Shown here piece after piece: positions 5,616 to 54,204 of a DNA stretch of 64,000 nucleotides. The notes under the pieces were generated by a model. The model made no database searches, was not told the DNA's origin, and was given only the letters and a program-made list of their open reading frames with translations. How positions within the stretch are numbered: position 1 is the stretch's first letter; each line of letters opens with the position of its first letter. Source of the stretch: Hormiphora californensis (taxonomy: Eukaryota > Animalia > Ctenophora). The stretch is from contig CM035353.1 in NCBI GenBank assembly GCA_020137815.1, positions 7,254,001 to 7,318,000 on the forward strand, read 5' to 3'. The translations under genes were made by a program, and so were the position numbers.

Positions 5616-5880
5616 TAGTTGGTTGTCCTAAATAAATTGTTAAGTTAAATGTTAATACTGGGAGGAGTTAGCAATTATTTAGCCTTAAAGGGGGATGGAG
5701 GACTGTAGCGCATGCCCTTGTGCGCTCGTTTCTTTGCTTTAAATCTCGATAAAGTTCCTGACGAAAAACGGGCGCCGTTACGATTTGGGTGTTTCGAGGC
5801 ATGTTTACAGGTTCACGCTGCCACAAACCCTGCGGCTCTAACGGCTAACCGCCAAACCACTCAATTGTTTTGGCTAATCC

Positions 5881-7323
5881 AAGTTTACAACAAGTTTACA
5901 AGTTTACAATAAAAGTTTTAGTGTACACAACAGGCCTTCCCTTAGTGGGTCCACCTAAATAAATTAAACACGTATCACCTCTCAGCCACTCTCAGACATT
6001 TACAGCACATTGAGGGGAAATATCATTGGGAAGTGATGGATAGCCTCTGACAGGGGGACGGTCATAAAAGCCTGTCAAGTAATTGCCCAGGGATGATTTG
6101 AATTGACCTAAGCTTCCGCAAGAGTTAACGGCCGCTGGCAACCTGTTCCACAGGTGAGCAGCTCTCGGTCCGAAGGAAGAATGGTACTGATTCGCTCTCC
6201 AGGTCTCAGCCCGATAAGGAAACACTGGTGGGACTAACCTCATACCCAGCCTTGCACTGTGTTGGAACACAAGATTTGCAGAATTCGGAACAAACCCATG
6301 GATCGTCTTCCACACATGTATCAACATGTAACGTTGTCTCCTACGTTGAAGAGACATCAGGTTGAGAACTTTTAATCTCTCCCAATAGTCGAGATTCTGC
6401 ATTCCATCAAGTCTTCTAGTAAAACACCGTTGGACGTTCTCAATTGACTTGATGTCCCCAGACTTTGACGGATCCCAGACCAGACAACAATACTCCAAAA
6501 TTGGTCTGACCAGTGATTTGAAGAGTTGCAACATTACCTCTGGTGAACGATCTCGAAAAACACTGAAAATCCACCCAGATAGGAGAGAGGCTCTCCTCAC
6601 AATGGTGGCAATGTGCTTAGACCAAGAACCATCCGAGGACATCTGGACACCCAAGTCACGGACATCAGCTTCAGGAAACAGTTGTACTCCAGATTTTGTG
6701 GTATACGAACATATGTCAACTGAAAAAGGGAATTGTAGATTGTAGATTGCCGACTTGTTCAGTCTGTAACTCAGGAGTTGAAATTTCTGATCATGTAGCA
6801 CCATATTGTTTATCTTGGCCCATTCTGTAACCTTCAAAAGATCAGCTTGTAAACCCTCCTGATCAACAATATCTGTTATGGCTTTCATTAACTTGGTATC
6901 ATCCGCAAAGGTGAGACACATACTACCATCCAGTACAGATTCCAGGTCCAGTATATAAATAAGGAAGAGGAGAGGGCCCAGGACACTACCCTGCGCCACC
7001 CCGCTGAGCACCTCCACCCATGGTGACCTAACCCCATCCACCATCACACACTGCTGCCTGCCCAGGATCCACGCACTGATCCACTGATGAAGTTTTCCTC
7101 CAATCCCGTACCTTTTCAACTTAGCTAGCAACACATTGATATCCACCGAATCAAAAGCTTTAGAAAAGTCTAAATAGAGAACATCAACTTCTCTATCTCC
7201 ACAGAGTTCAGTTAGGATGTAGTCAACATGAGATAACAGTTGGGACATAGTACTACGTCCCTTTCGAAAACCGTGTTGCGTTTCACTCTGTAACTGCATT
7301 CACAAATACTAACTAGTTCTTTC
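5881..7323 (-). mobile_element. 5'-truncated CR1/L2-group LINE (RT and C-terminal domain)
   Basis: ORF 5992-7299 has QHGFR, YLDFSKAFDSV, SGVAQGSVLGPLLF, FADDTKL and the CR1-type C-terminus (VRPILEY..VW.P, VQR.FTR, LQRRRQR). 3' tail of short (TTGTAAAC) repeats at 5881-5910. Confidence 0.92.
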
Positions 7324-19972: not shown

Positions 19973-20450
19973 AGCAATATTGTCTCCTTCTAGAGATATG
20001 ACTCCTTCTAGATGTATACTGGGACATTGGGATATTGATGTAGATATATATGTGTAGTGTATGTGATTAGAAGTCTGTTTAAATCTTTGAAAGGTGATTG
20101 ATATTTCCTGATATATTGCTAGAGCCTGGGATTTTTTTTCGTAATTTCTTTTTAAAATGACAAGGTAAAGTTGGTGTGAATTTCCAATTTTGAGTGTACC
20201 AAACTTAAATATTTCAGTGTTTCATTGTCTTACCATGTTTTGCATCTTCCCTTCTTTCGTCACGTATACACAAGTGAGATCCTGTCTCAAATCTTTCTAG
20301 ATTATCAAACATGATAATCTAAACACAAATCACAATCTCCTAACATTATCTCTCCTAACATAGAATTCTCTCCACCCTATTATAATCTCTCATGTTCTTC
20401 TAACCGGTTCTAACACAATCTAACATTTTCTCTCTGACAGAGTCCTCAAG

Positions 20451-25753: not shown

Positions 25754-27450
<1,697 letters not shown>

Positions 27451-27895
27451 TCAATACTAGCTATCTGATCGAGTTACCATGTATTGCTAAAGCGACTGTT
27501 TCTCAATATCTGATCGGATGGAAGTTCCCGAATTCAATGCTGTCACTAATTTAAACTGTTATTTCACTATGACTATATTCGATAGTTTTCCCAATGCTTA
27601 TGTGTGCTTGCCATGCTGTGAAAATTTTCGTTTAAATTTCTTGATTCCCCAGCCTGAAAAAAGTTTTTTGAGATTTTGAGAATAAAATTAGGTCAACTTC
27701 AATCCAACTCAGCATGAAAAATAACTTTGGCATAATACATTTCCGCCTTCGATGCAAACTAACTTCAAGTGCCAGATTAGTACAATATGAAGCTGTCACT
27801 TCATCGTTGGTGATGCCATCCCCTATTATGTTTAGTGGCTATTATGTTTAGTGGCTAGTGTAGGGGTGGCCGCGTCACAAAACTTCATCGTGTAA

Positions 27896-30800
27896 TCATT
27901 CATCCTCCAAAGTTCCATAAACCCGCTCCTCGCCTGGGCACGGATTGTCATCTGTTGTTGTTACGTTATCATTAGTACATGTAATTGTAAGAGCAACTGA
28001 TCTCGTTGCTGCAGTGCTAGTGCTGGCGCCACTCGAATTCATAGCAGAGGTATGATCATTATAAATATGGTCCGTCTCTGCTAGATGGTGGGAAACAGGC
28101 CGGAATGTCTCCACTGAATCATTAGCAGGGGTGATGTTGTCATATTGAATTTTGTTCGCTGTTATTTCCTCCATTTCCATCTCTTCATCAAGTTCCCTGA
28201 CTTCAGAAGTCACCAGCTTCTCCCTAATCAAACTGACGTAGTAGGAAAGTTTACATTTCAGAGTCTTAGCTGCCGTCTCGGCTGATTTGTTGTAGATAAG
28301 GGGGTTCACTAGGGAGTTCAGGGGTAGGAAGATGATGGAGAACAAGGCGTAGGTTGGTGTGGCATCAATTACCAGTCCTGAGTGCAGGCAGCTCACCACG
28401 ATGAAGGGTATCCAACATAAAAAGTCCGTTAAAACTATCACTGTAACCTTTCGTTGGAGTTGTTGGTTCCGTTGGATTACCTGGTGATTTACACACGGTC
28501 CCGTAACTAGACCTTTGCTTCCCGATAGGGTGAAGATGGTGATGAGTATGTAGGAGATTGCAATGATCCCAAAGCAAAGGACATCTGAGAAAAGGACCAA
28601 CCAGACGTAAAGGAGTTGGGGATCTTCTCGGGTAACGAAGAATTTGAAGGAGCATACACCGTGGTTACCATAGAAACTATTACGGTGAGATCTGATTAGG
28701 GAGTAATCCTGGGAAAACATCTCCTGGATCAGGGACCGGATTTGTGACCACCGTAGGAACTTTCCCGAGTGACGCCGAATGCCTCCATAGTATCCCTCAA
28801 TGACAGATGTATGCATGGCTTTGTTGGGCATTCCTATAAACAGTGTGTTGTTCCGATCGTAACTAAGGCCATTTACAAAGAAATCCTCAAACTGAGGAAT
28901 CAGAGGGATGGTATAGAGAAACACCGGGAAAATGAGAACAAAAGCAAAGCAGATTACTACTTTCGCCTTGCACTTTGGGCTCAGCTCAGCTCTAGGACCA
29001 CGAACTAAATCATTAGAACGAATACTGCAGACCCTGATGAGACTTAGGATTGTCATGGAGACGACGGAGAGTTGTGAGCCGACTGAACTCAGCACTCCAA
29101 GTGTTGCACAGGGCCACTGTGACAACCATGTGACCTGGTGATCGCAATATGTGTGACCCAGAATAATGTCGTAGAAGGATAAAACCAATAGGTAGGCCCC
29201 TGTAAACATGTCTCCAATGGCAATTGACATTGTCAGGAATTTGTTCAGCATTATTTCCTTACTTTTGAAAGTCTGTTGTCGCATTTCCCAAACGGAAATC
29301 GAAAGATTCAGTGCATTCAGTGCAAAGGAAAGAATCCCAATCGCCCAAGCACACACCTTTAAGGAAACTCCATTCAATATCTCTTGTCCACAATGTTCGT
29401 TGCACTCATCAGAGAGGTCCACACAATCTAATGTTCCATCACATACCTGACTCAACCTTATTCCTTGCTCCATTCTTGCACTGGAAGCTGTTCCTACATC
29501 TTCGCTCGTCGCTAGAATCTCCACAATTATCAGCTAGGTCACAAACCGTGTCATAAGATATACAGTTACCATTATCGCAAACAAAATATCGGTTATGATA
29601 TCGACCTTGTTCCTGTACTAAAAATGTCAGATAGTCATTGTTAACAATGGTGTACACTTGATTCTTCGCTAGGTTCCGACAAGAGTCCTTCAAGACAACC
29701 CTTCCTTCTAGTGGACATTGTGTTGTATTGTCCAGGCATTGTCCTTCACATGCTATGTGTAGGTAAATCTCTCCATATAGTGACCTACAATCTAGTTTCT
29801 GGTTAGGTATGGTTATTTCTAGAGTGTCGTTTTTGCCAAACACATTCAGTCCAGGGGGATAATTCCACGCTTTGACTGAGTGACAAGGTGACAACTGCTG
29901 TCGGAGATTTTCTAAGCCTGGTAGACACCAAAACCCGATTTTGTTGATTTTCTTTCGACCGGGAATGTTGTTTGCAGTTGGAACTGTTTACGGGAAATAG
30001 TACAAACACGAGTCTCCGCTCCACAGGTGTAAACCAAATCACACAACTGGGGCAGCTCAATGTACCCTCCACGTGCACCCGGACACACAAAGACATCACT
30101 GCAGGTCTTGTTGGATTTTAGTCTGGTTGATGTCCCTGATCCGCATCTGGGCCACTGATCAACTTCATCCTCCCCTGACAGACAGTCAACCACACCATCG
30201 GAAATCCAATCTAGGGGGATTCGGTCCATCTTGTCCCGGACACCAAAGAACCTAGCACAAAACTTTCCAGATACTGTCAAACATATTGGATGGGTCTCAT
30301 CGGAAGAGTCAGGACAATCAGGGATTCCATTGCACATCCGGTGCTTATGGACAGTGCACTTGGGCGAGGCTTCAACACACTTCTCATTTAACCGGTCATC
30401 ACAGAGGGCCACGGCGCGAAGATCGGTACATATGACATGTCTACTGATAGTCGACAGAAAACCATCCACTAAACACACCCCTGCTACCTGAGAAACGTAT
30501 AATTACGTATACAGTCGGACCCCGATTTACCGGGATGCTCGGGGGAAAGGGTTTTGCCCGGTAAATCGGGGTGCCCGGTATTCCGGGGTAAAATATTGTT
30601 AATTGCCTATTTCGGGGGAAGATTATCCTCCCGGTAAATCGGGGTTCTGGTAAATCGGGGCCCGGTATATCGGGGTCCGACTGTAATTACAGTTGCCTGG
30701 TAACATAGACACCTAGCGCCGGTGTGCGGGGGTCGCGCCAGGTGTCTATGTCACCAATAATTACAGTAGGCGCTGCTTTGACGAGAATTTTGCGTCACGT

Positions 30801-33800
30801 GACGTTAATTGGCGAAAGAAGTCATTTGACAATCGCCAAGTTTTGGCAAGATTTGGCGGGAAATGGAAGCATAGAGGTTCAAATGTAAATTTTAGCAAGT
30901 GCTAAGAAGAAAAATCAGCATTCTGAAAGTTTCTACATACCCTGTCTGGGTCCGTACAGTTAGTTTGATCATGGAAGTTTGCACACACAGGATCGTACAC
31001 CTATAAATGCATAGTTGTTAAATAATTATTCAACAATCAACTACTTATAGATACTATCAACATATCGCGTCGAATGCAAATCAATTAATCTGTGTTTGGC
31101 GAAATATAAATTTGACTAAAGTCGGATTTTTTGAAGTTGTCACCCCCTTTTCACGCACGGCGTCGTATTTGGGCGTGACAGCCCCCACTTGCTCTCACTT
31201 TTCGGTAAAAAACCGCATATCATCAGAAAAGGCATCATTTTAGGAGTCCGTAAAGTTTTTGTTTGACGAAATTGGTCAAGAAATAAAGGCCAAGGCATGA
31301 GCGCCAAAAACAAGTTTCCAGCGCGCAAATAAAAATTAAAAACTCGCACGCCACCCAGTGGGGTGGCAATTTCAAAAAATCCGACTTTAACCTTTCCGGG
31401 TTGTTTAAAGCTGTAACAACGGGAAGAATTTATAAGGGCAACCTCCTCCCCGTAAAGGTTTATACAGATCTGTGTAGCTTGAAGACATTTTAAATTTCCA
31501 TTTCCAATGTACCAATAGCCCTCTCGACACATCATAAATGGTGTTGCGTACGTATCGATAATCCCATTCTGATGGTCGCTATAGTACTCACCATACCTGC
31601 AATGCAGCAGTTGGGAGAGTGATCGAGATACAAAGAGAAATATGGGAATTGGGGGCGATTTGGGAAAAAGGAGAGACAGATTGAAGATTCCTCAATTTGT
31701 GATCGGTACGATCGCTCCAGTTCTATACTAATACTATTTATAAACGCAGTGCAGGTACCTGTATCCATTGCACATCGCTTCATCCTCACAACCGTATAAA
31801 TTGCAAATGTCATCACACAGAATACTCCATGGCATTCGGGTACCAATAATGCTGGTAAAGGTGCTGTTCGCCTCACATTGTATTTCATCTACACCACCAT
31901 TCACACAATCAATCTCATCGTCACACCTGCAGCAGAGAATAAACGGTTTTCAAAAACGGTACGCATACGCATCATTTGTGTAACGGCTGTGATTGGCCAA
32001 CCTTGCGCGTCTTCTTGTAACGTTATTTCACCGAAACGTTTTTTTGCGACACCGTTTTTGACTGTATGGCGGCGCCATACCCCATTTGATTCTCAACAGT
32101 GCGCGACAGTGCGCTCAGATGGGTCGCGGCGCCAGACAGGTTTTTGACACTACAATTGCAGCTCCTTGCTTTAAGGGTACGCTAACCAAAAATTTTTTTC
32201 GAGTGCAGGGAAATCTCTCACCGTAGGGTTGTAGGCCATGCCAAGGAGACCTCAAATATGCAATTTGAGCTCTCAAGTCGAATTCATATTTTTGCTACAG
32301 CTGTTTAAAAAATGTCCTGTAAATACGTTTTTGGCATCTCAAAAAATTTTTATAAAGATAGGAGCATGAAAATTTGGGGATTTGAAGAGGACATGAAGGT
32401 GAATAACCACAAAAATTTTTTTTGCAATCCGAGCTGATTTCCGGTCCTGAGATGGATTTCTTTTTTTCCACTTTAACGCCCTATTTAGCAAAGTTCCGAA
32501 AACATGTGAAAGCTGTAAATTGGTGAAAAGTTGCGTCTAACGATTATCTAAGTGGCCATAAATTTTGGGCGTGTCCTTATTTGAGATAAGCTGTACAGAG
32601 TTTTTTTTGTGAAAGCCGTCATTTCAGAAATAAATAAATTCCCTGTATCTCAAAAACGGCTGATCGTAGAGACCTGAGACTATGCTTAAACGATTCAGAA
32701 GGTCCGATTTTGGGGGGGTCTTCTGAGAGACATTTTGCTCCTACTTCAACCGTTTTTGCTGTAATTGCGAAAAACAAAAACCCATCTTCGCCATCGTGGA
32801 TTTTTTGTGATTTGGTTTTTGGTGATTATAGGGACCCATATGGACCAAATAGTGAAGGAATTAGCTTGTTACACATTTTTCCATAGTTTCGGTCCTTTCT
32901 TAGCTAAAATTCCCTAATTACAGGATATTGGAGTTTAGCTTTTGCCCTTTTCATAGAATTTGTTTTTCGCAATTACAGCAAAAACGGTTGAAGTAGGAGC
33001 AAAATGTCTCTCAGAAGACCCCCCCAAAATCGGACCTTCTGAATCGTTTAAGCATAGTCTCAGGTCTCTACGATCAGCCGTTTTTGAGATACAGGGAATT
33101 TATTTATTTCTGAAATGACGGCTTTCACAAAAAAAACTCTGTACAGCTTATCTCAAATAAGGACACGCCCAAAATTTATGGCCACTTAGATAATCGTTAG
33201 ACGCAACTTTTCACCAATTTACAGCTTTCACATGTTTTCGGAACTTTGCTAAATAGGGCGTTAAAGTGGAAAAAAAGAAATCCATCTCAGGACCGGAAAT
33301 AAGCTCGGATTGCAAAAAAAATTTTTGTGGTTATTCACCTTCATGTCCTCTTCAAATCCCCAAATTTTCATGCTCCTATCTTTAAAAAAATTTTTTTGAG
33401 ATGCCAAAATCGTATTTATAGGACATTTTTTAAACAGCTGTAGCAAAAATATGAATTCGACTTGAGAGCTCAAATTGCATATTTGAGGTCTCCTTGGCAT
33501 GGCCTACAACCCTATGGTGAGAGATTTCCCTGCACTCGAGAAAAAATTTTGGTTAGCGTACCCTTAACTAACCGTACTGCTTGGACGTCTCCAGTTGTGA
33601 CGCCTTGATCACCTTTATAGACACACACGTATCTCTCACACAAAAACCGACTCGACTGAGACATGTGGGTAAGTGTTGACTCCAATGTCCCACAAACCTA
33701 CAAATGGAACAACATCTTTTAACATTATTAGCTCCAACGCTTAGTTTCCCTCCGTCACTGAAGCCTGAGATGTCAGGTCTCAGTGGAAAATAGCCGTGGC

Positions 33801-36800
33801 CTGAACCTGAGGTTTAGATACGACTAACGACTGTTTGCCACAGTGTTTTACCTGGTATGCTCGTGGATCATAAGGGCATGCTACATCAAAATCTGTAAAC
33901 CCAACAGCTTGGATTCGAATACTGTAGAAGTCATCCGATGCGGAACATTGAAAGTAGTCTCTATCGCTTCCGTGAAACTTGCATACCTTCTTCAGGTACC
34001 CATGAATTTCTTTTATCTCACAAACCTCTATAAAAATAATAACACGGGTTTAATTGAAATGTACCCAGCCAAAAATGGAGGATAAACTTCACCCGATATA
34101 GGAAATTTACGGTATTTGACCCCGATTTACCGGGCAAAACCCTTGCCCCCGAGCATCCCGTTAAATCGGGGTCCGACTTGCTTGACTAGTTATATATGAA
34201 CAATTTCTAATATAATATCTGCTTCCCTACAGTTTAGTAGCCTAGGATACAAACTGAAACTTACCCAATTCGCAGTACGGTAGATCGGGTATGTCGCATT
34301 CCTCCCACCGAGGATTGGTTGATGCCGCGTTGTAACACCACGGAGCATCTTCAACATCTGGGTTTCTGCAGTAATTATGATCTCCCATATTCTTCGTAAT
34401 TACATCCCTGCAAAAGTAATAGCCATTAAATACAAATTAAATACAAATTTTGTATCTTTAACTAGGTAAGTAAAAACTAAAAATAATTTAAACTACAGAT
34501 AATCCGATAAGTTGTGAATATTAGTCAGGTCTTTTGACATGATTAGGGGGTATGTATAATCCCGGATAGCTCGGATAGCCCGGATAATATATACTTTCGG
34601 GAAAGCCGGGATTATACCCCCTATACCCCCTATAGTATGTACATATCACTGCGCTGGCAAGCGCAAAGGTTGCCATTCCCCCCCCCCCCCCCAAAGCGCC
34701 GCCAGAAACGCAGTTATACGTTTTATGGGTGTTTTGGCTGAAAACCCAGACTTTAGAAGGCTATAGCGTGGCTCCCTTTCATCCATTTGACTTGAAATTT
34801 GGAATGTATAACCGGCTTGGGGTCTTTGACTCAAGTTTAAAATTTCAAGTCTTTATCTCATCTGGAACCGAAGTTACAGATAGGTCCCATTTGCCATAAA
34901 TTCAGTGTAACACGCATATACGCGCGCGCGCGCGCGCGTAGGAGAGACGCTTTTTGTAAACCATATTCACGCCAAACGAAAAGAGATAGAAACTTCTCGT
35001 TTTCACAGCTGGTAGATCTACTGGATGTGTGTGCATTAGTCGATATGGGGTCTCTTTTCATCGCCAGGAACGTCCTACAGAACGTCTTAAAGTCGTCATT
35101 TTTCAGACTCTGACCAAAATTCTTTGAGTTCAATTTAGACCCGGAAGACGGATTCTAATCGAAAAACGAAGACTATATCATGGAAAGAGAATTGTCTAAA
35201 CTTTCAGAAACTATATAGCGAATTTTCAAAACTACATGTATAAGGGTCTTAAAACGCGTCTGAAGTGTTATGACTGTTTAAAAATAGATATGACGATATG
35301 GGTTTTTTCGCCATAGCGGACTCAAATCTCATCCAATCGATCTCAATAGTCAGGGCATATGATGTTAGATTTTCGGCATAATTGTTATAAAGCTAATTCC
35401 ACTTCTAGGAGGTCCTATTGGGTCCCTAGAACCACCAAAAAAAATGTTCGCGATTTGGTGGATGAAGAAGTTGGGTTTCCGGGCCACGCCCTTCTACCTA
35501 TGTTTTGAGAACGAGGCAAAAAACGCCAAAACTGCGCTTAGGGGAGGAGTAGGGACAAAATCAAGGGCACTAGAGTGTTCAGCGTCCTCGCATTAGTGGG
35601 GGTAGATGCTGGAATTAAGTCTCTATCTTATCTGGTTAATTGGATAATTGGATAATTAGCTCTACGCATAGCCGTTTTTGGCCATATGGCTATAGCCATG
35701 TTAGGAAAGGAGTAGAGACAAAACCGAGGGCACTAAAGTGTTCAGCGTCCTCGAATTAGTGGGGGTAGGTGCTGGAATTAAGTCTCTATCTCATCTGGTT
35801 AATTAGATAATTGGATAATTAGGTCTGGGCATAGCCATTTTTGGCCATATGGCTATAGCCACTTGGGAATGATTTATCGACTTTTCCTTAGTGCCATTTT
35901 GTTCAGAAAAAAATTTTAATCTAAGAGTTGTGGAAAAATTTAGAGCCTATCTCTTACAGTTTTGGCGTTATTTGCGGTCAAAGTATGCCAAATCAGCCGA
36001 AAATGCCAAAAAATTAGTTAATTGGCCTACTTTGACCGCAAATAACGCCAAAACGGTAAGAGATAGGCTCTAAACTTTTCCACAACTCTTAGATTTTAAC
36101 AAAATGGCACCAATGAAAAGTCGATAAACCATTCCTAAGTGGCTATAGCCATATGGCCAAAAATGGCTATGCCCAGACCTAATTATCCAATTATCTAATT
36201 AACCAGATGAGATAGAGACTTAATTCCAGCACCTACCCCCACTAAAGGTCCTCCCAAACTATTATGTCCCTTGCTGCGCGCGACCGGATTTTAGACAGCC
36301 ATAGCTCCACCCCCTGATGGGATAGAGACTTGAAATTTGTTTTGTGAGGAGATCTTGTCGAGTTCTTCCTACAAAACAAATTTCAAGTCTTTATCTCATC
36401 AGGGAGTGGAATTATGACCGTGGGAAATTTCACAAAACCCGAGTGAGGGACATAGTAGTTTGGGGAATACTTTAATTCGAGGACGCTGAACACTTTAGTG
36501 CCCTCGGTTTTGTCTCTACTCCTTTCCTAACATGGCTATAGCCATATGGCCAAAAAACGGCTATGCGCAGAGCTAATTATCCAATTATCCAATTAACCCG
36601 ATAAGATAGAGACTTAATTCCAGCACCTACCCCCACTAATGCGAGGACGCTGAACACTCTAGTGCCCTTGATTTGTCCCTACTCCTCCCCTAAGCGCAGT
36701 TTTGGCGTTTTTTGCCTCGTGCTCAAAACATAGGTAGAAGGGCGTGGCCCGGAAACCCAACTTCTTCATCCACCAAATCGCGAACATTTTTTTTGGTGGT

Positions 36801-37916
36801 TCTAGGGATCCAATAGGACCTCCTAGAAGTGGAATTAGCTTTATAACAATTATGCCGAAAATCACCATGAAATTGACATCATATGCCCTGACTACAAACT
36901 TGGTCAGTATCTTTATCTAGGTAATCCCGATGATATGACGTTTTAATTGTGACGTCATGACGTCGTGAAGTCATTTTATGACGTCAAAATGACGTCAAAA
37001 ATGAAATTTTTTCAATTTAGCGATTCCATACTCTCCGTATCTGTTCTACTACATCTAAATGGATAAAAAATCCCAAAAATGATGCAAATTATACCAAAAC
37101 TAATTGAAATTAGTAGGCGGAAAGGTTGCCCTATGATTTGAGCTACCTTTGCCACTGTAACATTCACGGGCCGGGGTGCAGACAGGGTAAAACATATGCT
37201 TCGTCTATCTTCAATTTAAGGGAATGTATTGGTGCCAAAGGTAGCTCAAATCATAGGGCAACCTTTCCGGCCTACTAATTTCAATTAGTTTTGGTATAAT
37301 TTTAGATAAATACTATGTTACACGGCGAATTACGGAGTAATTCAGGAAACATGACCAGCAAATGAGGACAGCAAATGAGGACAGCAAATGAGGACAGCAA
37401 ATGACGTCATCAAAGCACAAACTAGGAACCGACCGAAACAAGTAAACAACCACTCAGAACTCGTTATTTAGGTCACGTGACTGGTTATCAGCCAATCAGG
37501 GACCAGTATTTCCTGGTTCGGTAGGTTCCTGGTACAAACTGTGTACAAACTGCGTACTTGAGATCAGAGAATAGGCGGCATGTGTGCTACTTATATAGCC
37601 ATCTGATGCGCAATTGAGGTTTGCTGTCCATATTTGCTGGCTCCCGGTCTCAACAAGGTACTAACCTGTCAGAGCATTGGCCTGACCCTATTCTCTGAAC
37701 TGTGGTCAGAGCATGACGGGTACTTACCAAGGCCCATGGCCCCCTCTTAACAAGGTACTACAGCTTACCAAGATGGGGGTAAATCTGATCCTTGGAATAG
37801 CCAGGTGTGTTCATTGGGTGTATGAGATAGCCAGTTCTGACAGGGAAGGCCTGACTTTGTCACATTCCTCGTTCCTCTATACCACAGCCCCTTGGGATCA
37901 TCGATTACCTTACAAA
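27896..37916 (-). CDS. kringle + Cys-rich/LDLa-repeat rhodopsin-class GPCR (GRL101/LGR-type 7TM, no LRRs)
   Basis: Phase-consistent exons 37916-37769, 34407-34265, 34027-33852, 33697-33573, 31926-31759, 31596-31392, 31000-30941, 30487-27896. Kringle (YRG...CQNW...HNYCRNPD...PWCY...WEECD), LDLa repeats ([25 protein letters not shown]), TM6 [11 protein letters not shown]7 [12 protein letters not shown] few frameshifts in the last exon. Confidence 0.85.
30512..30683. mobile_element. CAGTCGGACCCCG MITE (Tc1/mariner-pogo type), TA TSD
   Basis: TIR CAGTCGGACCCCGAT. Further copies at 44890-45046 and 61488-61659; fragments near 17590 and 34085-34178. Confidence 0.9.
30697..30760. repeat. short hairpin-like dispersed repeat
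   Basis: CATAGACACCT...AGGTGTCTATG; its right half is also present, inverted, at ~24325-24353. Confidence 0.55.
31119..31387. mobile_element. MITE, TA TSD, 4 nt inside a GPCR donor site
   Basis: AAGTCGGATTTTTTGAA.TTG.CACCCC / GGGGTGGCAATTTCAAAAAATCCGACTT. Confidence 0.8.
32175..33563. mobile_element. 1.4-kb foldback, TTAA-flanked with GG..CC ends (Kolobok-like), in a GPCR intron
   Basis: TTAA-GGGTACGCTAACC...GGTTAGCGTACCC-TTAA; ~600-bp near-identical arms. Confidence 0.88.
34647..35340 (+). mobile_element. dispersed repeat starting CACTGCGCTGGCAAGCGCAAAGG (possibly Chapaev3/CMC-like)
   Basis: 34647-35060 is closely similar to 63612-64000; the same start motif occurs at 63309. Confidence 0.7.
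35347..36894. mobile_element. 1.5-kb foldback with internally duplicated arms
   Basis: TAGTCAGGGCATATGATG...CATCATATGCCCTGACTA; centre near 36010; ~160-bp direct repeat within each arm. Confidence 0.88.
36246..36472. mobile_element. MITE nested in the right arm of the foldback, TAA TSD (PIF/Harbinger-like)
   Basis: The left arm preserves the empty site (GAATTAGTGGGGG, ~35753). Imperfect TIRs CCCAAACTA.TATGTCCC/GGGACATAGTAGTTTGGG. Confidence 0.8.
37088..37301. mobile_element. palindromic MITE
   Basis: AATTATACCAAAACTAATTGAAATTAGTAGGC...GCCTACTAATTTCAATTAGTTTTGGTATAATT. Confidence 0.8.
37423..37531. mobile_element. 109-bp hAT-type MITE
   Basis: TIR AGGAACCGACCGAA/TTCGGTAGGTTCCTG, 8-bp TSD G(C/T)ACAAAC. 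Preceded by a 13-bp tandem repeat (AGGACAGCAAATG, ~37355-37403). Confidence 0.8.
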
Positions 37917-38279
37917 CTGCGAAGGAAAGTTGGGATATATGGACCAGTTGCAATTATAGGGAAACACGTGATAATATAATCTGTAATCGGTTTAACGGTT
38001 AAAGTATATGGTTGTATATGGTATAATGGGTATAATATGCTTGTATTGTATTTAGTATGGAGAATGTTGGTAAATGTGGGCTCCACATAAAATTATGCAA
38101 GTTGTCTTTGTTTTATCAAATGCGTTATATTCAATTGTTTTGTTCAACCGGGCGCGGGGAAGGGAGGGTTGAACAAGGCAAATATTCACTCAAGTATATA
38201 TTCTATTATAATCTTAATCTTGCGTTATATTCACTAAATTTATTATATTATATTCTTGATCTTGGTCAGCTCTTTGAAA

Positions 38280-41200
38280 ATGTGGTTCGTTTGTGCTAAC
38301 GTATGTGCTATTTTCACTGCAGGTAAGGGACTGTAACTTTACAAATAAATTTAGTTGAATTGTGTACACAGTTCAGAAAGATTTATCAAAGAATAGAAAA
38401 TGTAATGTTTTACGTAAGCTCTTCAAGCTCATTTATGTTTCAGTGTGGTCTACAACATTAGTGAACGACTGCGATCTAGTGGAGCTGGAGGGAGCCAGGT
38501 GGTCGTTATTTGAAGTTGGCCTGCCGTTATCGCAACACTGTACTATACAAATGCCCCAACTCCCTTGAGCTGTACAGCATCATACTCGACTCTTCCCAGT
38601 TAAACTCTCCCACCGGTTTCTTCGCGTCATACAGTTGGTTGTGTTCCAATGATCCGTATTTCTTCCAAGCGTGCGGGCACAGCATGGCTACAGAGCCACT
38701 AACCCTCACAGGGAGCACGAACTCTGTGCGGAACAGCCGTGTGCGACAACCATTCCAAGATTATCAGTGGTAGCTGGCTGGAAGAGCAAGAGTGTGACGG
38801 TGCTAGGCAATGCTGGAACTATGATGATGAAGGGAAGGACTGTGGAGATAATTTCACGTGCCCCTCAGGGACACCCTGGTCCCTGTCAACACGTCTCAGG
38901 GGGGAGAGGGTTTGTGATGGTCAGTGTGATTGTACCAGCTGTGCCGATGAGAGTGGCTGTGGGTACAAATATGGGATGTGGTGTGACACACTTTTCACAG
39001 ACACCATGGTCTTCATTCCGGATGGCCTTTTGTGTGATTTTATAACACACTGTAGCCAGGATGAGGACGAGAAAGGGTGTGATACAGTTGATTTCACGGC
39101 GGATGATAATCCGTGGTGTATGCAGGGGCTGTGGAACAGGACGGTGCTGGATAGACACCGGTGCACGCCCACATCGCAAACATATCCCTTTTGTAGTGAT
39201 GGGAGGAACCAGGTATGTAGTGAGATTGTTACATTTACTAAAGAGAGATTGTTACATTTACTAAAGGGAGTGAAAGAGAGATTGTTACATTTATAAAGAG
39301 AGTGAAAGAGAGATTGTTACATTAACTAAAGAACCTCTATATCAGGTGAATTGTACGGACCCAGCGAAGGTGGTACTGAATTGCACCATGGGCGGCTATC
39401 CCACAGGGTTATCTCAAGAGGCACTCTGTAAAGGCTACTCCCTTTGTGATGATGGTTATGAGAACCTGTGCCGAGAAGTGGAGGAAGGATGTATAGTCCA
39501 CCGTAGTGCACTATGTGACGGAGTGACGGACTGCCCTTATGGACGTGATGAGGTGGAATGTAGTGAAGTGGTAACTCTCTGTCCCTCCAGAGTCGGGGGA
39601 GGGGCACAGGCCCTGCTGAAATCATGGATCAATGATGGGTATGATGATTGTCGTGATGGTGTGGATGAGGATGGTACCTTTGTGGTTTGTGGCTATCCAC
39701 CGTGGAATTATGAAGTTGAGAGGAAGTGGGGGGATTGTAGGGAGATGTTGAGGTGTGAAGGGGAGGTAGGGTGTGGGGTTATCCCTTCACGATACACCCC
39801 AAACACGGTAACCCTTGAAGAACCGATCAGGTATACATCGCCTTACTGTCTCCCAGGATTATCCCTTCTCAGGACACGACTCAAGATCAAATGTTTCCAA
39901 GGACACTTCATACCGAACCCTGAAACTGACTTTATCGCTGTACCACATCTGGAGTTAGAGTTACCGGACCCTTCTAATTATATTGATCCCAGGTTCATTT
40001 ACGGAGCGGCATATGTCATTGCAAAATGTGAGGACACCATCATTGGATGCCCTACAAAGGAAATCCCAGAGCTGACTTGTTCCAACCACCGAGATCGTCA
40101 CGTGTTGGCATTGACCAAGACCAACACCCTCACGACACTTCTCAGAACGACCAACACCCCTGGAAACACCCACTACACCCGACTAATCTACCCCTGCACC
40201 AACGGGCAATGTATCCCACTAGACAAGTTATGTGATCTGGTTGATGATTGTGGTGATGGTAGCGATGAGATGAACTGTGAGAATGGATTCCAGTGTGATC
40301 CAGGCTCCCAGGTGAGGGTACCACTGACAGCACTCTGTGACGGGGAGGTTGACTGTCCGGGTCACCAAGACGAGTGTGGGTGCAGTGATCAGGCAGGTTC
40401 TGTTGTCATGGTAACCATGGGTACTACCCAGTGTTTAATAGCGATCACAGTCCTCATTGTTGTAGCTCACCCGCTGGAAAACACCTACATCCTAGGGTGG
40501 CTGTTGATAGGACTACACTTGGTTTTTCTCAGTGTAGCACACTTGATACGCCTCACTGACCCCTGTCTAAATCATCACCCCTGGAGATGTACTAATATCT
40601 GCTGGTACGTGAGCAGTTTCCATAGCACTGGGAAAATCATGACACTACTCTCCTGTGCCACCATTTCTCTGTTACCAAAAAAAGTAAACCGGAGAGTTCT
40701 CAAAGGGCTGAGTATCTCGATAATATTTCTTTCTGTCATAGTTTCCGGAATTCCCGTGTTTTTCTTCAATGATTCCCTCGTCGACCGGGTATACATATCC
40801 AATGCTGCAGAACTACACCGTCCATTCAGTAACGGTGAGATAAGACAAGTCATCAGCCAGGTACTTGGTCGGGTAAAGTTGACCCCTGATCATGGTACTA
40901 CTACCCTGAAGGAACTACTTAGGTCCTTGTTTACAGAACGCCATGGCGGTGTGACCTTCCATAGTGAGCACCCTGGAGAGTTCTGTCACTTGGATTCCTG
41001 GACAGGTGAAATTGTCCTGTTTTTTGTTTTTCTTTTGATTGGTTGTGTAAGTATTGGTAGGGCTAAATACAGCTTGGCTGTGAGGTGTTTGTTGCATTCT
41101 GTTTCCTGTGTTTTTACCGTAGGAGTTGGTATACTGTGTGAAAATAACTGGTGGTCTACTGCCGTTGGAAGCCCAGTGGTTGGATGTCTAACTGTGGCTA

Positions 41201-41937
41201 TCCTCGGAGTGAAATATATTTTGCGTTCGTATTTCAGCAAAAAGTCACGTCATGCGAGGGTGAAACGAGTCGAAACGATCGAATTAAAACAGTTTTCATC
41301 AAGTTCAGCAAATGGCTTGACTGATCAAAATAACGAAACGAGAGAAAATGTGGAAATTTACGAAGAACCAGATGTCGAAGAAGATGTGGTTATTGATGAA
41401 GGAGCAGATTCGGTTTTTGATAAAGGAGTGGATGTAGTTATTGATGAAGGAGCAGATGTGGTTACAAATGAAGGAACAAAGGTGGTTATTGGTGAAGGAA
41501 TATATGTCAAAAAAGATCATGGATTACGCTTCTTCTTTTCATCTATTCGCTCTAGAAAACCACTCCATCGAGAGCAAGTTATTGATGAAGGAACAGATGC
41601 GGCTTTTGATAAAGGAGTGGATGTGGTTATTGATGAAGGAGCAGATGTGGTTACCAATGAAGGAACAAAGGTGGTTATTGGTGAAGGCACAGATGTCAAA
41701 AAAGATCATGGATTACGCTTCTTCTTTTCATCTATTCGCTCTAGAAAACCACTCCATCGAGAGCAAGTTATTGATGAAGGAACAGATGCGGCTTTTGATA
41801 AAGGAGTGGATGTGGTTATTGATGAAGGAGCAGATTCGGTTTTTAACGAAAGAGTTGATACGGTTATTGATGAAGGAGCAGATTCGGTTTTTAACAAAAG
41901 TGTTGGTGTGGTTATTGATAGTAGATGTGGTTTCTAA
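38280..41937 (+). CDS. LDLa-repeat membrane protein with degenerate 7TM and repetitive C-tail; paralogue of the - strand GPCR
   Basis: Exons 38280-38322 (signal-like MWFVCANVCAIFTA), 38444-39212, 39346-41937. Shares C.NDP..FQ.CG, Q.NCTDP and LDLa blocks with the - strand receptor. Short hydrophobic helices lack CWxP and NPxxY. Confidence 0.8.
41380..41925 (+). repeat. coding 24-bp (VIDEGADV-like) repeats organised in a 189-bp higher-order tandem
   Basis: GATAAAGGAGTGGATGT recurs at 41419, 41608 and 41797. Confidence 0.9.
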
Positions 41938-42300
41938 TGAAGGAGAAACTAAATATGAAGACCCTAGCATACTACATTTTACACATTGTGCTTAGCTTTG
42001 AATGCATTCTGTTTGTCATCAATCATTACTTATCGTCTATCGATAGCATCTATATTTACTTGCTGTATCATTTTCTTGTTGTACTCTTTTGTGGTTACAT
42101 AATTACTATTTAGTGCAAAGAATTTGTCAAAATCTCTCCCCTGCCATAATGCGATGGTAACGACTAACGCTCCTATTCAAAGCCACCAAAGTTGTAGGTA
42201 CCCCCGGCCCCGACCCCCGTTTGCCTCTTTCTTTACAGATGTAAAGGAGGGTTGGAATATATGTGTTATAGCAACCAATCCCGCTGCACGAACAACCCAC

Positions 42301-43113
42301 TTATTCCAAACAAGTTATTCTGGAGAAATACCTCCGGCATTCATCATCAACATATGCTTGTAGAGAACATAATAGTAACCTAAGTCTAACGACGAATCTT
42401 TAAAAAGTACCTTCATCAGTGGTTTTGCAGATCGGGACATCACATTTCAGCATTCGAGGTGATGTACCATTGCCGTTGTAGCACCACAAGTACAGCTCCT
42501 GATCAGGATTTCGACAGTAGTTGTGATCACCCATACCAAACTCTGGGTATAACTGAACGGGGAAGGATGGTTTGGGCCTTGGGGAGGATTAATCCCTGCA
42601 GCATTATATAACTGCACAAGAAAAATATTTTACTTTAGAACTTATACCATTAAAATTGCCAATTAGTTGGCATTTCTGTTATAGAATTAGAAATACACGT
42701 ACGTACATTAATTTAAATACGTACATTAATTAAAATATATTTAACTAATTTAACTAAGAATTATGAATCTTATGAATGAACAAGCGGATATGTTGTGATA
42801 CCCAGGAGTCCATAAATACAATACTAACTGAAATAATGTGGTTGTTGGGGGACTGATCCGTCCATTTTTGGCATGTTCTTCCATCCTTACCCTTGGCCAT
42901 CGTCCCTCGATAATTCAACCCCGCCAGGTCACCCAACTCCCGACACTCTGAACAATCGGTGATTTAATTAACTAACTGATGATTGTTCAGTGATTGAATC
43001 ACTGAACAATCATCAGTTAGGTAAATGTTTGCAGACCTCTTACCTCTCTTACCTTTTGGTTTTCCAGTTTGTATAACAATAACTGCACAAGCAATCAACG
43101 CCAACAGAAGCAT
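42301..43113 (-). CDS. signal peptide plus kringle domain exons (5' end of the GPCR, or a stand-alone mini-kringle protein)
   Basis: Exons 43113-43053 (MLLLALIACAVIVIQTGKPK), 42947-42829 and 42552-42411 ([18 protein letters not shown]) end in phase 1. That fits either a short terminal exon 42356-42301 or the exon at 37916. Confidence 0.8.
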
Positions 43114-45459: not shown

Positions 45460-48946
<3,487 letters not shown>

Positions 48947-50001: not shown

Positions 50002-53000
50002 CAATAAATTAAACTACAATAAATATTGCTCGAGATGGTGTTCATCTGAATAATAATCTAAACGGATCTGATTTATAATGACATTGTTTGATATGGTGTA
50101 TATCACAACAGTTTCACTCGGTGGCTCCGGTGTAGCGGGCAATGAAAAGAGTACGTGTTGTCAGATTCGTGGTGGAAGTCCAACTTTTGAGTGGGAAGGA
50201 TGTTGGATATGCGCGTGTGATCCTTTATTCTCACACTGACTGAAACCAGATTGAGATCAGACTCTATCAGCTGTAGAAGCTGAAGCTTTGTTGTTTTTTG
50301 TTAATCATTTATATCTGTGTAAATAGTTATTAACCCCTGCCTATCTTTTATGAGCATCCTTCCATGACAAACCAGTAGTCGTCCTTGTCCTCCATACAGC
50401 GCAACAACATATATTGCGATGATAAGATTAAATTTGTTCGTGTTTCGCATTATTACAATTTTATCAATTTTTTAAATTGTTTTTAGATTCTCGTATGCAA
50501 TCTTTTGTACTGTTTGGTTTCTTTTGTAGCATCTTTTCTGTTTTAAACTATCTTTATCTGTTTTCTTTCTTTCCCCTCCTTTTTCCCTTCACCACAGAAA
50601 AATTCACATGTTTCTTTCTTCAAATGGGTAACCCATTCAAAGCACCATTTTCACGGGACAGCTATGTTTGTCTTGGAATGGCAACAGCCAATATCGCATT
50701 CTTTTCATATGGAATGTCATTTTTCAAAGTAATTCACTCGTTTCATGTTATGTATGCTAGCATTTGTTATATTTATATTCTAACCTTCTTTTTACATTTT
50801 TCCCAAGAGAGGGTCGAGAGAGGGTCGAGCTAGACAAGCTAGCGTTTGGTTTGATGTCTTTTGTTCTTTCAGATTTTCTATTGTTCATTATTTTCGATCA
50901 GTCATTTTTACTTTTTATCATCTTAGTTGTTGACATTTTTTAATATTATCGATTTTCATCATGTTTTTGTATCCCACATCTTCATTTTGTGGGCCGGGAA
51001 AAGACCCTCGGTACTAGGCTTCCCTAAGTGAAAATTGAAATTCATTATAAAATTTTCGGTCAATTTGTATCGAAAAGAGAACACAAAAAGAAAATTTTTG
51101 GCGAAAATATCAAGTCATGGGTCTTCCTGGTTGCGCGCCGACAGGCGGAAGTAAATGACAAGTAAATTCTAAGACAAATAGCGCTGCCACCTAGAGTTGC
51201 ACCATCCTCGAAGAGTCCGACTCCATTATCCTCCTCGACCATCACTCCACCATTATCTTCTTCTTCCCCAGCAATTATTAATGCGGTACCCATTATACCA
51301 GCACCGAAACATGTACGGCCCGGTAACGATACAACCACTGCTACCGGCATCGGTACCAGCATTCTCAGCGACAAGACCCCCTAAAGGTCGTCCTGCAATT
51401 CCTATCACTGAAAAAGCCAGACGGCTGCAAGTGGCGGCAGACTTCAGGATTGGGTATACAGTACCCTCTGCGAACGAGGAGTTGGAGCTATTGCAAAAGG
51501 ATTACAACAGTTGCATTGCCCCAGTAATCTCTGCAAGAAGACTGCACACAGTGCCACTACAATTAGTGTAATCCCGGTATCATAATAAGTAATCATAATG
51601 TAATATTATTAGTGTGTCATACCCTATTACTTGGGTTACTGCCTAGTGCCTACTGCACTATGTGGTAACAGGGGTGAACCAATGAGTTAGAGTGAGTCGG
51701 CGACAAGTACTGTAACTAGAGTTAGTGTGTTTAGGAAAGTCAGAGATGCAGGGAGTAGTTCCGACCAGTTCGATTTTATCCTTCCGTCTATTTTGCACCA
51801 CCAAGTTCTGTGTTTTATAAAAGTCTAAAAGGGTACCTAAAAGCCCGCTGACGGAGAGCATTTGGAACCCCCGGCGGGACTTCATACACCAGTGAGACGC
51901 ACCTTCCTTACCGAAGCTATTTCCCATCCATCTTTGCATAATTTTGCTGTTTATCAATTTTATAATTATTAATTAGTTGCCCACAGATACAACAGGTTAC
52001 TTTATTTTCAGATGGGTTTGGATACAATGGATCAGCAAACTCCAGACCGGTCCGTACCTCCTGCACCACGTCGAGATGCCTCTACAACCACGCCTTTCAA
52101 ATACCAAGCTACTTTAGACTCTTTGACTGAGGAGCAGAAGGCAGCAGTTCGTGCGTACACCACCATCACCATGTGCAAGAAGCCACGTCATTGGCTGCGG
52201 TCATGAACTCAGGAAGAACACTTCAGTGAATCCCTCAGCATATCAAAGTACTTTGCTAAGAGACCAGTCATGTTTCCAACACTTGAATGATATGATATGA
52301 CTTATCCTCGACCGATTTAGGATTTTTTGGGCCATACAGTGATTGCGGATAGCGACAAGATCCGGTTTTTCTGTTCATACTTGCCCGACAAATTAAACAG
52401 ACGTCTCTCGCAGCAGCCGGATGTAAAAGCTAGGGAGGTATCCTGGGAGGAGTTTCAGGAGCGAGTGAAGGAGGCCGTGATGATTATGACACAGGAGACT
52501 GGGCGGCTGGCTAGAACCAAAACTGAGAGACGGAAACAGTTGGAAGGAGATCACTGAGAGACATGCCGATGAACTGTTTCAACTTGCCAAGAAAGCCTGG
52601 CCCAGGGATGAGGATCATGCTGTCCGAGAGGTGATGCTGAAAGATATTTTAGCTAACGGTGCCAAAGTGGAGGAAGTAGCTGTTTACATTCTCCAGCATG
52701 CAGATACTAAAACATTCAACACTGGTTCATGACGCAGATAATGGAGTCGTCTACAGGGGGTCAGAGCTGAACTGAAATCAAAAAGGGATGTGGAGGTAAA
52801 CGTCCTCAGGGTCCAACAACAACACCTACCGAGCGAGGAACCAGATCCCTACCGACCTGTTGAAACAAGATTACTATCCCTCTGTGCAGTATGGAAACGG
52901 ACCCCGGCCCTCTTACTACTACAATCGAGATCATCAAGGTACGGACCGCGTCAGAGGAGGAGGAGGAGGAGAGCCTCGCAGATGCTGGAACTGTGATCGC

Positions 53001-53088
53001 CCTGGCCATATTGCTCGGAACTGCCGGAGCCCACGTCAACAACAAAACCGGTACCAAAACAATCATGCCGGTACCAAAACAATCATGC

Positions 53089-53406
53089 TAACTCCTTCAA
53101 ACCCCGTCCTGCTGGCATCTCCATCAAACCTAGATCTCCCAAACCTGTTTCCTAATTCTCTTCAGCTCGGATCACCTCTTCTCCTTCCCGTGGATCACCT
53201 CCCCCATCCCCTCCTCTCGGATCGCATCTTCCTTCTCGGATCTCATCCCTTCCTCTCTCCTCCCCTCCCCGGATCCATATCCTCTTCTCCACTACATCAA
53301 CACTTCATTTTCATTGTTGTTATAGCTGAAGACGTCTGACATAGATCAGTCGAAAGCTCCTGTTCTTAATTGAATATTAGTACTGCAAAATCGTTGTTTC
53401 TCTTTA
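53089..53406 (+). mobile_element. Penelope-like pLTR fragment inserted in gag
   Basis: Flanked by AACAATCATGC repeats; gag resumes in frame after it; contains a hammerhead motif. Confidence 0.6.
53322..53363 (+). ncRNA. minimal type I hammerhead ribozyme
   Basis: ATAG-CTGAAGA-C-GTCTGA-CATAGA-TCAGTC-GAAA-G-CTC-CTGT: core boxes CUGANGA and GAAA, stem II, a CUC cleavage triplet, and stem I ATAG/CTGT. Confidence 0.7.
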
Positions 53407-53565
53407 ACAATCATGCACATAGGGACCAATCTCACATGTTAGGGTACCAAGTCTATAATGATAGGTGGGGGCAGCCCATGGGAAATCACCAAAATTATCC
53501 AGATCACCACACTACGCACAGTCCCCACATTTCTCAAAATACCCAGGCCCCGCTTGGTAATGAAA

Positions 53566-54124
53566 TTCCCCCTCTGCGCTAGCTCACGGAGGGGTAATAA
53601 TATCGCTTGTACGGCGGGAAAAAAATTCCTGTGTCCAACTACAAAACAGAAATTTCTAATTTTTTGAACATACCGAGGAAATTGTCTGAGCTACCATTAC
53701 ATACCGGAATTTTTCGATATTTTGGCCATTAACACGTTTTTTGTTTTGGAAAACTATGAAGATGCTGGAATTTGGCTACAAAAACCTTCAGAAATGTGCA
53801 AAATGCCATTCCAAAGGTATTAGAGGTGGATTCATTGATAACTACCTATAGTCGAGTCAGAAAAAAATTCCACAAGATTGGAATTTTATGCCCATATAAG
53901 GAGTTATGTCGACACACCTTGCTTTTGTTAAACATGTGGTGTAACGCTACCGGTCGTTACTTTCTGTAGAATTCAGGTCCTGGTTCCTATACAAACTAGT
54001 TACCATAACGTTTTAGATAGGTTTTAGACAAGTTTTCAATAACTTTTATGAGAAGGTCCCGTAAATTTTCATTTTTAGGTAGGCGGTATTGTCACCCCTA
54101 TATGCAATAATAGGGGTGACTTCG
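53566..54124 (+). mobile_element. Helitron/Helentron-like non-autonomous insert in gag
   Basis: 5' hairpin CCCCTCTG..CGGAGGGG, 3' hairpin GTCACCCCTA..TAGGGGTGAC, no TSD. Removal at an A|T site restores the gag frame (GNE-I-TKAPQG). Confidence 0.55.
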
Positions 54125-54170
54125 TAACCAAGGCCCCGCAAGGTAGTGATCCTCAATCTGCACGTGTGTC

Positions 54171-54204
54171 AAAAAACTAGAAGATCCCTCTCTCGGCGAG
54201 AGGG
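54171..54204 (+). promoter_or_regulatory. -1 programmed ribosomal frameshift signal at the gag-pol junction
   Basis: A AAA AAC slippery heptamer in the gag frame, then TAG; hairpin CCCTCTC-TCGGC-GAGAGGG 8 nt downstream. The -1 frame is open into the protease motif. Confidence 0.85.

What the first reader, a model, noticed from the sequence alone, without database searches (positions are those of the whole stretch)
38280..41937. Antisense, probably nested, paralogue with a collapsed 7TM: candidate decoy or co-receptor pair
Seen: a + strand gene lies wholly between the two kringle exon groups of the - strand locus. It keeps the same ectodomain blocks and the long second extracellular loop (LFTERHG vs MFSQDYS), but its helices are short, loops are minimal, and CWxP and NPxxY are gone. 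The 863-aa terminal frame is intact, which argues against a dead pseudogene. Inference: a non-G-protein-signalling partner encoded inside or beside its canonical paralogue.
Basis: partly seen in the sequence, partly recalled or inferred. Interest (0 to 1): 0.7.

Follow-up and report, generated by a model that had tools for sequence, protein, structure and literature searches.

The report
Comb-jelly receptor stripped of signalling face
This comb-jelly gene encodes a seven-helix receptor that keeps its outer parts but has lost the inner loops and motifs used to switch on G proteins, so it likely works as a non-signalling ligand trap; it likely sits in an intron of a normal relative, which is common in these animals.

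Summary
The observation mostly holds. The + strand gene (three exons, about 1,130 codons) belongs to a large ctenophore family of LDLa-repeat, LGR-like class A GPCRs. The loss is one-sided: the three segments that carry intracellular loops are 21, 14 and 37 residues shorter than the family median, while the extracellular segments are near full length. D2.50, R3.50, CWxP and NPxxY are gone; the TM3 and ECL2 cysteines stay. Short-read contigs confirm the deletions, and Pleurobrachia bachei has an orthologue (80% identical) with the first two. Substitution patterns and polymorphisms (pN/pS about 0.3-0.4) point to purifying selection. Against this: frame-broken copies lie beside intact ones in both samples, the P. 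bachei model shifts frame in ECL2, and no RNA was available. Nesting in intron 3 of the two-kringle - strand receptor is likely (about 0.75) but unproven, and it is common in pleurobrachiids. Nothing ties the two genes as a pair; trees lean away from sister status. Best reading: a ligand-binding receptor uncoupled from G proteins (decoy or scavenger). New variant of a known kind.

The parts
38280..38322 (+). + gene exon 1: start codon, short hydrophobic leader (likely part of the signal peptide), phase-1 donor
   Evidence: sequence and translation; no RNA
38444..39212 (+). + gene exon 2: start of the family's cysteine-rich/LDLa ectodomain; two one-base frameshifts as assembled (near 38497 and 38711)
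   Evidence: contigs lack the extra bases
39346..41937 (+). + gene exon 3: 863 open codons; LDLa repeats, 7TM and tail
40393..41244 (+). collapsed 7TM: seven modelled helices, intracellular loops of 2-6 residues, long ECL2; TM3 and ECL2 cysteines kept; D2.50, R3.50, CWxP, NPxxY lost
41245..41934 (+). cytoplasmic tail, about 230 aa, acidic, with 24-nt unit repeats and a 189-nt duplication (41389-41766); keeps a short IEL motif common in family tails
43053..43113 (-). host exon 1: signal-peptide-like, the only strongly hydrophobic ATG/phase-1-donor exon in 5.4 kb upstream of kringle 2
   Evidence: 28 candidates scored
42411..42947 (-). host exons 2-3 (42947-42829, 42552-42411): kringle 1
37917..42410 (-). 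inferred host intron 3 (4,494 nt, phase 1) that holds the + gene
   Evidence: splice model open over 449 codons; not shown by RNA
42301..42356 (-). rival terminal exon that would end a single-kringle gene; its acceptor ends in AAG, while the 10 model acceptors end in CAG or TAG
34265..37916 (-). host exons 4-5 (37916-37769, 34407-34265): kringle 2
   Evidence: second half joined to the receptor ectodomain in the P. bachei model P0150
30941..34027 (-). host exons 6-10: family ectodomain
27896..30487 (-). host exon 11: LDLa repeats and canonical 7TM with CWxP and NPxxY; two frameshifts as assembled (near 29950 and 29460), absent in P. bachei P0022

Best explanation
The + strand gene is a member of the ctenophore LDLa-repeat, LGR-like GPCR family that has lost its intracellular loops and activation motifs while keeping its ectodomain and outer loops, so it likely binds ligand without switching on a G protein, as a decoy or scavenger, and it is likely still under selection. 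Shown: family membership, the one-sided loss, an orthologue in P. bachei with the ICL1 and ICL2 deletions, and an excess of synonymous variation. Inferred: that it is expressed, folds as a 7TM bundle, reaches the surface with its LDLa ectodomain outside, and competes for or internalises the ligands of canonical members through its long tail. The 7TM would then act mainly as a membrane anchor, which fits its faster change (74% identity to P. bachei against 92% in the LDLa part). It likely lies in intron 3 of a two-kringle canonical member; the nesting is likely incidental.
For: Anchor distances, + gene against family median (range) in 110 of 119 members: TM1/ICL1 47 vs 68; TM3/ICL2/TM4 51 vs 65; TM5/ICL3 41 vs 78; extracellular ECL1 30 vs 31, ECL2 77 vs 85 (78-90). 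D2.50, R3.50, the W and P of CWxP and the P of NPxxY are invariant in 67 of 67 canonical rows and absent here. Orthologue P0142: 210 of 261 identical, distances 47 and 50. Its substitutions are conservative: mean BLOSUM62 0.35 against -0.61 +/- 0.23, reached by 0 of 2000 neutral simulations; chance of no stop in 863 codons at that divergence 0.017. Variants in and around the 7TM: 18 synonymous, 22 replacing (40 of 101 rows shown), pN/pS 0.44, P 0.009; ectodomain 12:9, P 0.002. Positive charges lie on the inner loops. Model with alignment: seven helices, best match RXFP1, Z 10.2, rmsd 5.1 over 179 residues, all 50 rows 7TM folds.
Against: Contigs with several frame-breaking indels in the 7TM lie beside intact ones in both samples; they may be null alleles or a decayed duplicate. 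The P. bachei model leaves the frame in ECL2 and stops. The 7TM changes about 2.6 times faster than the host's (26% against 10% different). The fold model leans on an alignment of canonical members, pLDDT is 65 (44 without alignment), Foldseek gave no match at E 0.001, and Z 10 is within the range of common helical bundles. TM3 has no hydropathy peak. Variant tables were cut and my split into intact and broken contigs was by eye. No ligand is known for the family; loss of motifs does not prove loss of all signalling.
Confidence: 0.5

Rival explanations
1. A dispensable gene under relaxed selection, or recently dead: the 7TM eroded because signalling was lost, and the gene is now decaying in both species.
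For: Frame-broken contigs in both samples, at about half of the summed depth in places; P. bachei model broken in ECL2; very long branch; fast 7TM.
Against: Every listed part of the 7TM also has gap-free contigs in both samples. The broken contigs are about 11-14% diverged with several indels in 250 bases, like an old dead duplicate, while the window copy stays open. Synonymous excess and conservative substitutions. The deletions are in frame and confined to the inner face.
Confidence: 0.25
2. It still signals, by a route other than the classical G-protein cavity: arrestin or an adaptor bound to the long tail.
For: The tail is 233 aa with 28 Ser/Thr and keeps an IEL motif found in 52 of 119 family tails (3.4 in shuffles); a basic helix-8-like stretch follows TM7, and a tyrosine lies at the same distance from the TM6 cysteine as the family's Y7.53. 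LGR4-6 act without classical G-protein coupling (recalled).
Against: Most of the tail is a recent repeat expansion, and one contig skips 351 bases of it. The TM6 switch and ICL3 are gone, so ligand could hardly move the helices in the usual way (inference).
Confidence: 0.15
3. One reading: a dedicated co-receptor or dominant-negative partner of the - strand host, kept in its intron for joint or mutually exclusive expression.
For: Same family, opposite strand, inside the host's span; start codon only 363 nt from the host's exon 4. Ectodomain-only AU test does not reject sister status (p 0.54).
Against: Host ranks 69 of 84, 117 of 131 and 122-131 of 131 in similarity to pieces of the + gene and is not among 29 hits of its 7TM (the host was split into pieces, which lowers its scores). 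Careful tree puts the + gene with P0070 and P0077 (100/100, long-branch warning), AU p 0.04 against a clade with the host. Intron positions differ. 2,357 nested genes are reported in Hormiphora californensis (PMC8527503), so nesting needs no special cause.
Confidence: 0.1
4. On the arrangement only: the genes are adjacent, not nested. A small secreted single-kringle gene ends at 42301 and the receptor starts from another first exon or a trans-spliced leader.
For: An in-phase terminal exon exists. The P. bachei model P0150 starts inside kringle 2. Trans-splicing is common in ctenophores (PMC8527503).
Against: Its acceptor ends in AAG; no AATAAA or ATTAAA follows (none follows the other two genes either); no ATG with a donor lies in the 363-nt gap; the only strong signal exon is at 43113. 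A leader spliced to 37916 would give half a kringle and no signal peptide.
Confidence: 0.25

Closest known systems
Ctenophore LDLa-repeat 7tm_1 receptors (unnamed; e.g. Mnemiopsis leidyi hypothetical proteins P0035, P0051, P0105, P0116, P0125; P. bachei P0022)
   Same: Ectodomain blocks, LDLa repeats without LRR, long ECL2, TM3-ECL2 cysteines, tail motif
   Different: All three inner loops cut, activation motifs lost; none of 110 measured members comes close (that set was picked by likeness to the host, so it is biased against collapsed members)
Ciona LDLRR-GPCRs; GRL101 and RXFP1/2 (type C LGRs)
   Same: LDLa repeats ahead of an LGR-like 7TM; the Ciona set also lacks LRRs and is a lineage-specific expansion (PMC2396169 passages; PMC4079206 passages). 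Host 7TM best matches LGR, RXFP1, LHCGR, TSHR, FSHR structures
   Different: No LRRs unlike GRL101/RXFP; long ECL2; host adds kringles; the + gene has lost the coupling face. Orthology with the Ciona set was not tested
Atypical chemokine receptors, and LGR4-6 as co-receptors (both recalled, no call)
   Same: Class A fold used for binding or trafficking without classical G-protein output
   Different: Those keep normal loop lengths and change a few residues; here about 70 residues of the inner face are deleted. No homology claim beyond class A
Nested intronic genes of pleurobrachiid ctenophores (PMC8527503 passages)
   Same: A gene inside one intron of a host, opposite strand
   Different: Here guest and host are of one family; how often that occurs was not tested

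Membership tests
Ctenophore LDLa-7TM family | LDLa repeats and family ectodomain blocks | tested here: met
   Pfam LDLa E 1.7e-12; 31% identity over 384 columns to P0070, E 1e-55
Ctenophore LDLa-7TM family | Homologous 7TM with long ECL2 | tested here: met
   family profile aligns last LDLa to ECL2, E 2e-23 (LDLa adds to that score); the 7TM alone finds canonical P0143 at E 5e-5 among 1.84 billion proteins
Canonical rhodopsin-class GPCR | Match to 7tm_1 | tested here: not met
   no hit up to E 1; 15 of 17 aligned rows hit, the + gene does not
Canonical rhodopsin-class GPCR | D2.50, R3.50 (E/DRY), CWxP, NPxxY (features as listed in PMC12716839) | tested here: not met
   all four lost; C6.47 and perhaps Y7.53 remain by position
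Canonical rhodopsin-class GPCR | TM3-ECL2 disulfide cysteines | tested here: met
   both present at near-family spacing; the bond itself is inferred
Canonical rhodopsin-class GPCR | Seven-helix bundle | tested here: inconclusive
   seven helices in both models, pLDDT 44 and 65; RXFP1 Z 10.2, rmsd 5.1; alignment-biased
Canonical rhodopsin-class GPCR | G-protein coupling | not testable with these tools
   needs a cell assay
Type C LGR (GRL101/RXFP) | Leucine-rich repeats between LDLa and 7TM | tested here: not met
   no LRR family in Pfam scans of the + gene, host or 17 aligned rows
Decoy or atypical receptor | Binds the ligand of a signalling relative without G-protein output | not testable with these tools
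   no ligand known; only the loss of motifs is shown
Nested intronic gene | Transcript lies within one intron of a host transcript | tested here: inconclusive
   splice model favours it; no RNA joint could be read
Pseudogene | Fixed frame breaks and neutral change | tested here: not met
   breaks in exon 2 look like assembly errors (second one shown in 1 of 3 runs); synonymous excess; but broken copies also exist

The most novel reading that the evidence does not exclude
A class A 'pseudoreceptor' in the earliest-branching animal lineage: a GPCR pared down by in-frame deletion of its whole G-protein face, kept by selection in two comb-jelly species as a ligand-holding co-receptor or decoy for a large orphan family, and placed antisense in the intron of a signalling member that it regulates.
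Probability: 0.15. Interest if true: 0.75.

Novelty: new variant of a known kind. Interest (0 to 1): 0.45.

Why it matters
Ctenophores have a large orphan family of LDLa-bearing, LGR-like receptors, and my searches found no description of it. A member that kept the outside and deleted the inside would show that decoy or co-receptor GPCRs arose independently in the lineage that split first from other animals, and it offers a natural minimal 7TM and a control for finding the family's ligand. If it is a decaying gene, it is only an example of how a receptor erodes. The nesting by itself is ordinary.

Tried and rejected
No whole genome is held, so copy number and other collapsed members in this species could not be counted. 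No RNA holder was listed; the one run guessed to be RNA laid a single 37-base piece: no evidence on expression either way. Run X7 (another organism) laid only 31-base pieces, so no interspecies dN/dS. The first homologue search, with the last LDLa and 7TM of the + gene, returned only LDLa proteins (21 of 2650 candidates). The single-sequence model gave no useful Foldseek match. The protein Atlas gave no answer, and the complex predictor was not available, so binding between the two receptors is untested. Rejected: that the collapse hides compensating frameshifts (the other two frames of the 7TM are full of stops; contigs are gap-free); that the + gene is a recent copy of its host. Summed contig depth was not used as copy number. 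Four look-ups of earlier findings returned nothing. Ten literature searches showed no paper on this family or on a collapsed member; the library lacks most subscription journals, and I opened no supplements, where GPCR lists of ctenophores (PMC11087051, PMC12716839) could bear on novelty.

Full report
Setting. The window is animal DNA with introns. The best named relatives of both receptors are Pleurobrachia bachei proteins (host 7TM 90% to P0022, + gene 80% to P0142), and 5 of the 120 listed family hits are named Mnemiopsis leidyi. So this is a ctenophore close to, but not the same as, P. bachei. The assembly carries one-base errors: alpha-tubulin shifts frame twice near 27280-27340 and a TatD-like gene once near 22160.

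Gene models. The + gene has three exons: 38280-38322, 38444-39212 and 39346-41937, about 1,130 codons. Exon 2 has two frameshifts as assembled. Contigs of all three DNA runs laid lack one base at 38497; one run is listed as lacking a base at 38711, with 55 rows hidden. The - gene can be spliced through ten GT-AG introns; exons 1-10 give 449 open codons: signal peptide, two kringles, then the family ectodomain. Its last exon has two frameshifts that P0022 reads through. These were not checked against reads.

Family. The host 7TM finds 238 proteins among 3449 candidates; the 120 listed carry LDLa and nearly all 7tm_1, none a precomputed kringle or LRR family. Its best solved relatives are a nematode LGR, RXFP1 and the glycoprotein hormone receptors. 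The nearest described kind is the Ciona LDLRR-GPCR set, LDLa repeats on a relaxin-receptor-like 7TM without LRRs (PMC2396169, passages), and GRL101-type LGRs (PMC4079206, passages). The + gene matches the family along its ectodomain and through TM1-ECL2, but not Pfam 7tm_1.

What is lost. Distances between conserved anchors were measurable in 110 of 119 family members and the host. The three segments with an intracellular loop measure 47, 51 and 41 residues in the + gene against medians of 68, 65 and 78, each below the family minimum. The two extracellular ones measure 30 and 77 against 31 and 85. The anchors in the + gene were set by eye from the alignments. D2.50, R3.50, the W and P of CWxP and the P of NPxxY are invariant in 67 canonical rows and absent here; of 145 columns conserved in at least 90% of 40 members the + gene keeps 49 and the host 103 (host row lacked the first LDLa). 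The TM3 and ECL2 cysteines stay. Models give seven long helices: pLDDT 44 alone, 65 with a 125-row alignment, spans of 20-26 residues and inner loops of 2-6. The second model matches RXFP1 best (Z 10.2, rmsd 5.1, 179 residues), with 7TM folds in all 50 rows; this leans on the canonical alignment, and Foldseek found nothing at E 0.001. From established class A biology (motif roles as given in PMC12716839, passages), a receptor without R3.50, the TM6 switch, NPxxY and the cytoplasmic ends of TM5 and TM6 should not open a G-protein cavity. That step is inference.

Is it alive? The 7TM alone finds 2 of 1.84 billion representatives: P0142 and one canonical member. So the collapsed form is known only from this species and P. 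bachei, within that library. P0142 shares the ICL1 and ICL2 deletions. Its 49 substitutions are far more conservative than neutral change of this sequence would give (0 of 2000 simulations), and an open 863-codon frame would survive such neutral change with chance 0.017. Variants in contigs: one search showed 40 of 209 rows, 26 in the coding region; I dropped one beside an indel and four from 40341 onward, leaving 12 synonymous and 9 replacing (P 0.002). One search showed 40 of 101 rows for 40300-41340: 18 and 22, pN/pS 0.44, P 0.009. Split by eye, 25 rows on contigs without a frame break give 13:12 (0.33, P 0.006), 11 on frame-broken contigs 4:7 (0.63, P 0.33), 4 unassigned 1:3. Against function: both samples hold contigs with frame-breaking indels (40462-67, 40548, 41016-20, 41111-22) beside gap-free ones. 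Their divergence of about 11-14% suggests an old dead duplicate, but null alleles are not excluded. P0142 itself ends by moving into another frame in ECL2, by draft error or true break. The covered 7TM part is 74% identical to P. bachei, the LDLa part 92%, the host 7TM 90%.

Nesting. Kringle 2 begins at a phase-1 acceptor and needs an upstream exon. Of 28 ATG-to-donor candidates in 5.4 kb, only the one at 43113 looks like a signal peptide; the 363-nt gap has one ATG and no in-phase donor. The rival stop exon at 42356-42301 has an AAG acceptor, while all ten model acceptors end in CAG or TAG. I put nesting at about 0.75. It is not rare: 2,357 nested genes in 1,654 hosts, 12% of exonic bases, are reported for Hormiphora californensis (PMC8527503, passages).

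A pair? Similarity ranks put the host low among family members. The careful tree (43 rows: 40 of 124 full-span members, P0022 for the host, the + gene and P0142) joins the + gene to P0070 and P0077 at 100/100 with a long-branch warning; holding it with the host costs 4.8 log units, p-AU 0.04. On the ectodomain alone (28 rows) the test does not reject it (p 0.54). Host and guest share only the phase-1 intron ahead of the family core. So a special tie is not shown.

Verdict. A real and odd receptor: outer half kept, inner face deleted, likely still selected, likely nested by accident. Most likely use: ligand binding without G-protein output (0.5); rivals are decay (0.25), tail-based signalling (0.15) and a dedicated partner of the host (0.1). 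Comparisons with atypical chemokine receptors and LGR4-6 are recalled, not tested. Also read as passages, with nothing on this family: PMC11797021 and PMC11087051. Other papers were seen as search listings only.

Noticed in passing
window 27896-43113 (-): The host would be a two-kringle + LDLa + LGR-like 7TM receptor; no kringle family is listed for any of the 120 shown relatives, which carry F5/8C-like or TSP1 modules instead when they carry any. Looks like phase-1 exon shuffling ahead of a fixed core.
   Followed up: partly
window 25927-27400 (+) and 20424-22500 (+): Alpha-tubulin has two frameshifts and a TatD-like gene one; likely one-base assembly errors, so broken frames in this assembly need reads.
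   Followed up: partly
window 27165-27507: The tail of P. bachei model P0022 matches the antisense of the alpha-tubulin end, so receptor and tubulin are neighbours there too.
   Followed up: yes
window 41272-41290 (+): A short [IM]E[LM] word occurs in 52 of 119 family tails (3.4 in shuffles) and is kept in the collapsed receptor; possible trafficking or adaptor site.
   Followed up: partly
window 41338-41690: One contig of run X1 skips 351 bases (117 codons) of the repetitive tail; length variant or contig artefact.
   Followed up: no
window 32171-33567 and 35368-36863: Long near-perfect inverted-repeat elements (arms up to 438 nt) fill two host introns; MITE- or foldback-like.
   Followed up: no
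window 3888-5627 (-) and 8938-9471 (-): A 579-codon frame without Pfam match and a near copy of its start lie on either side of a reverse-transcriptase frame at 5992-7299.
   Followed up: no
window 52800-58240 (+): LTR-retrotransposon-like pieces in several frames: zinc knuckle by eye, RNase H and integrase by Pfam.
   Followed up: no
window 47105-48112 (-) and 61752-62536 (-): Frames that look by eye like a LINE ORF1 and a piggyBac-type transposase piece; Pfam gave no confirming hit.
   Followed up: no
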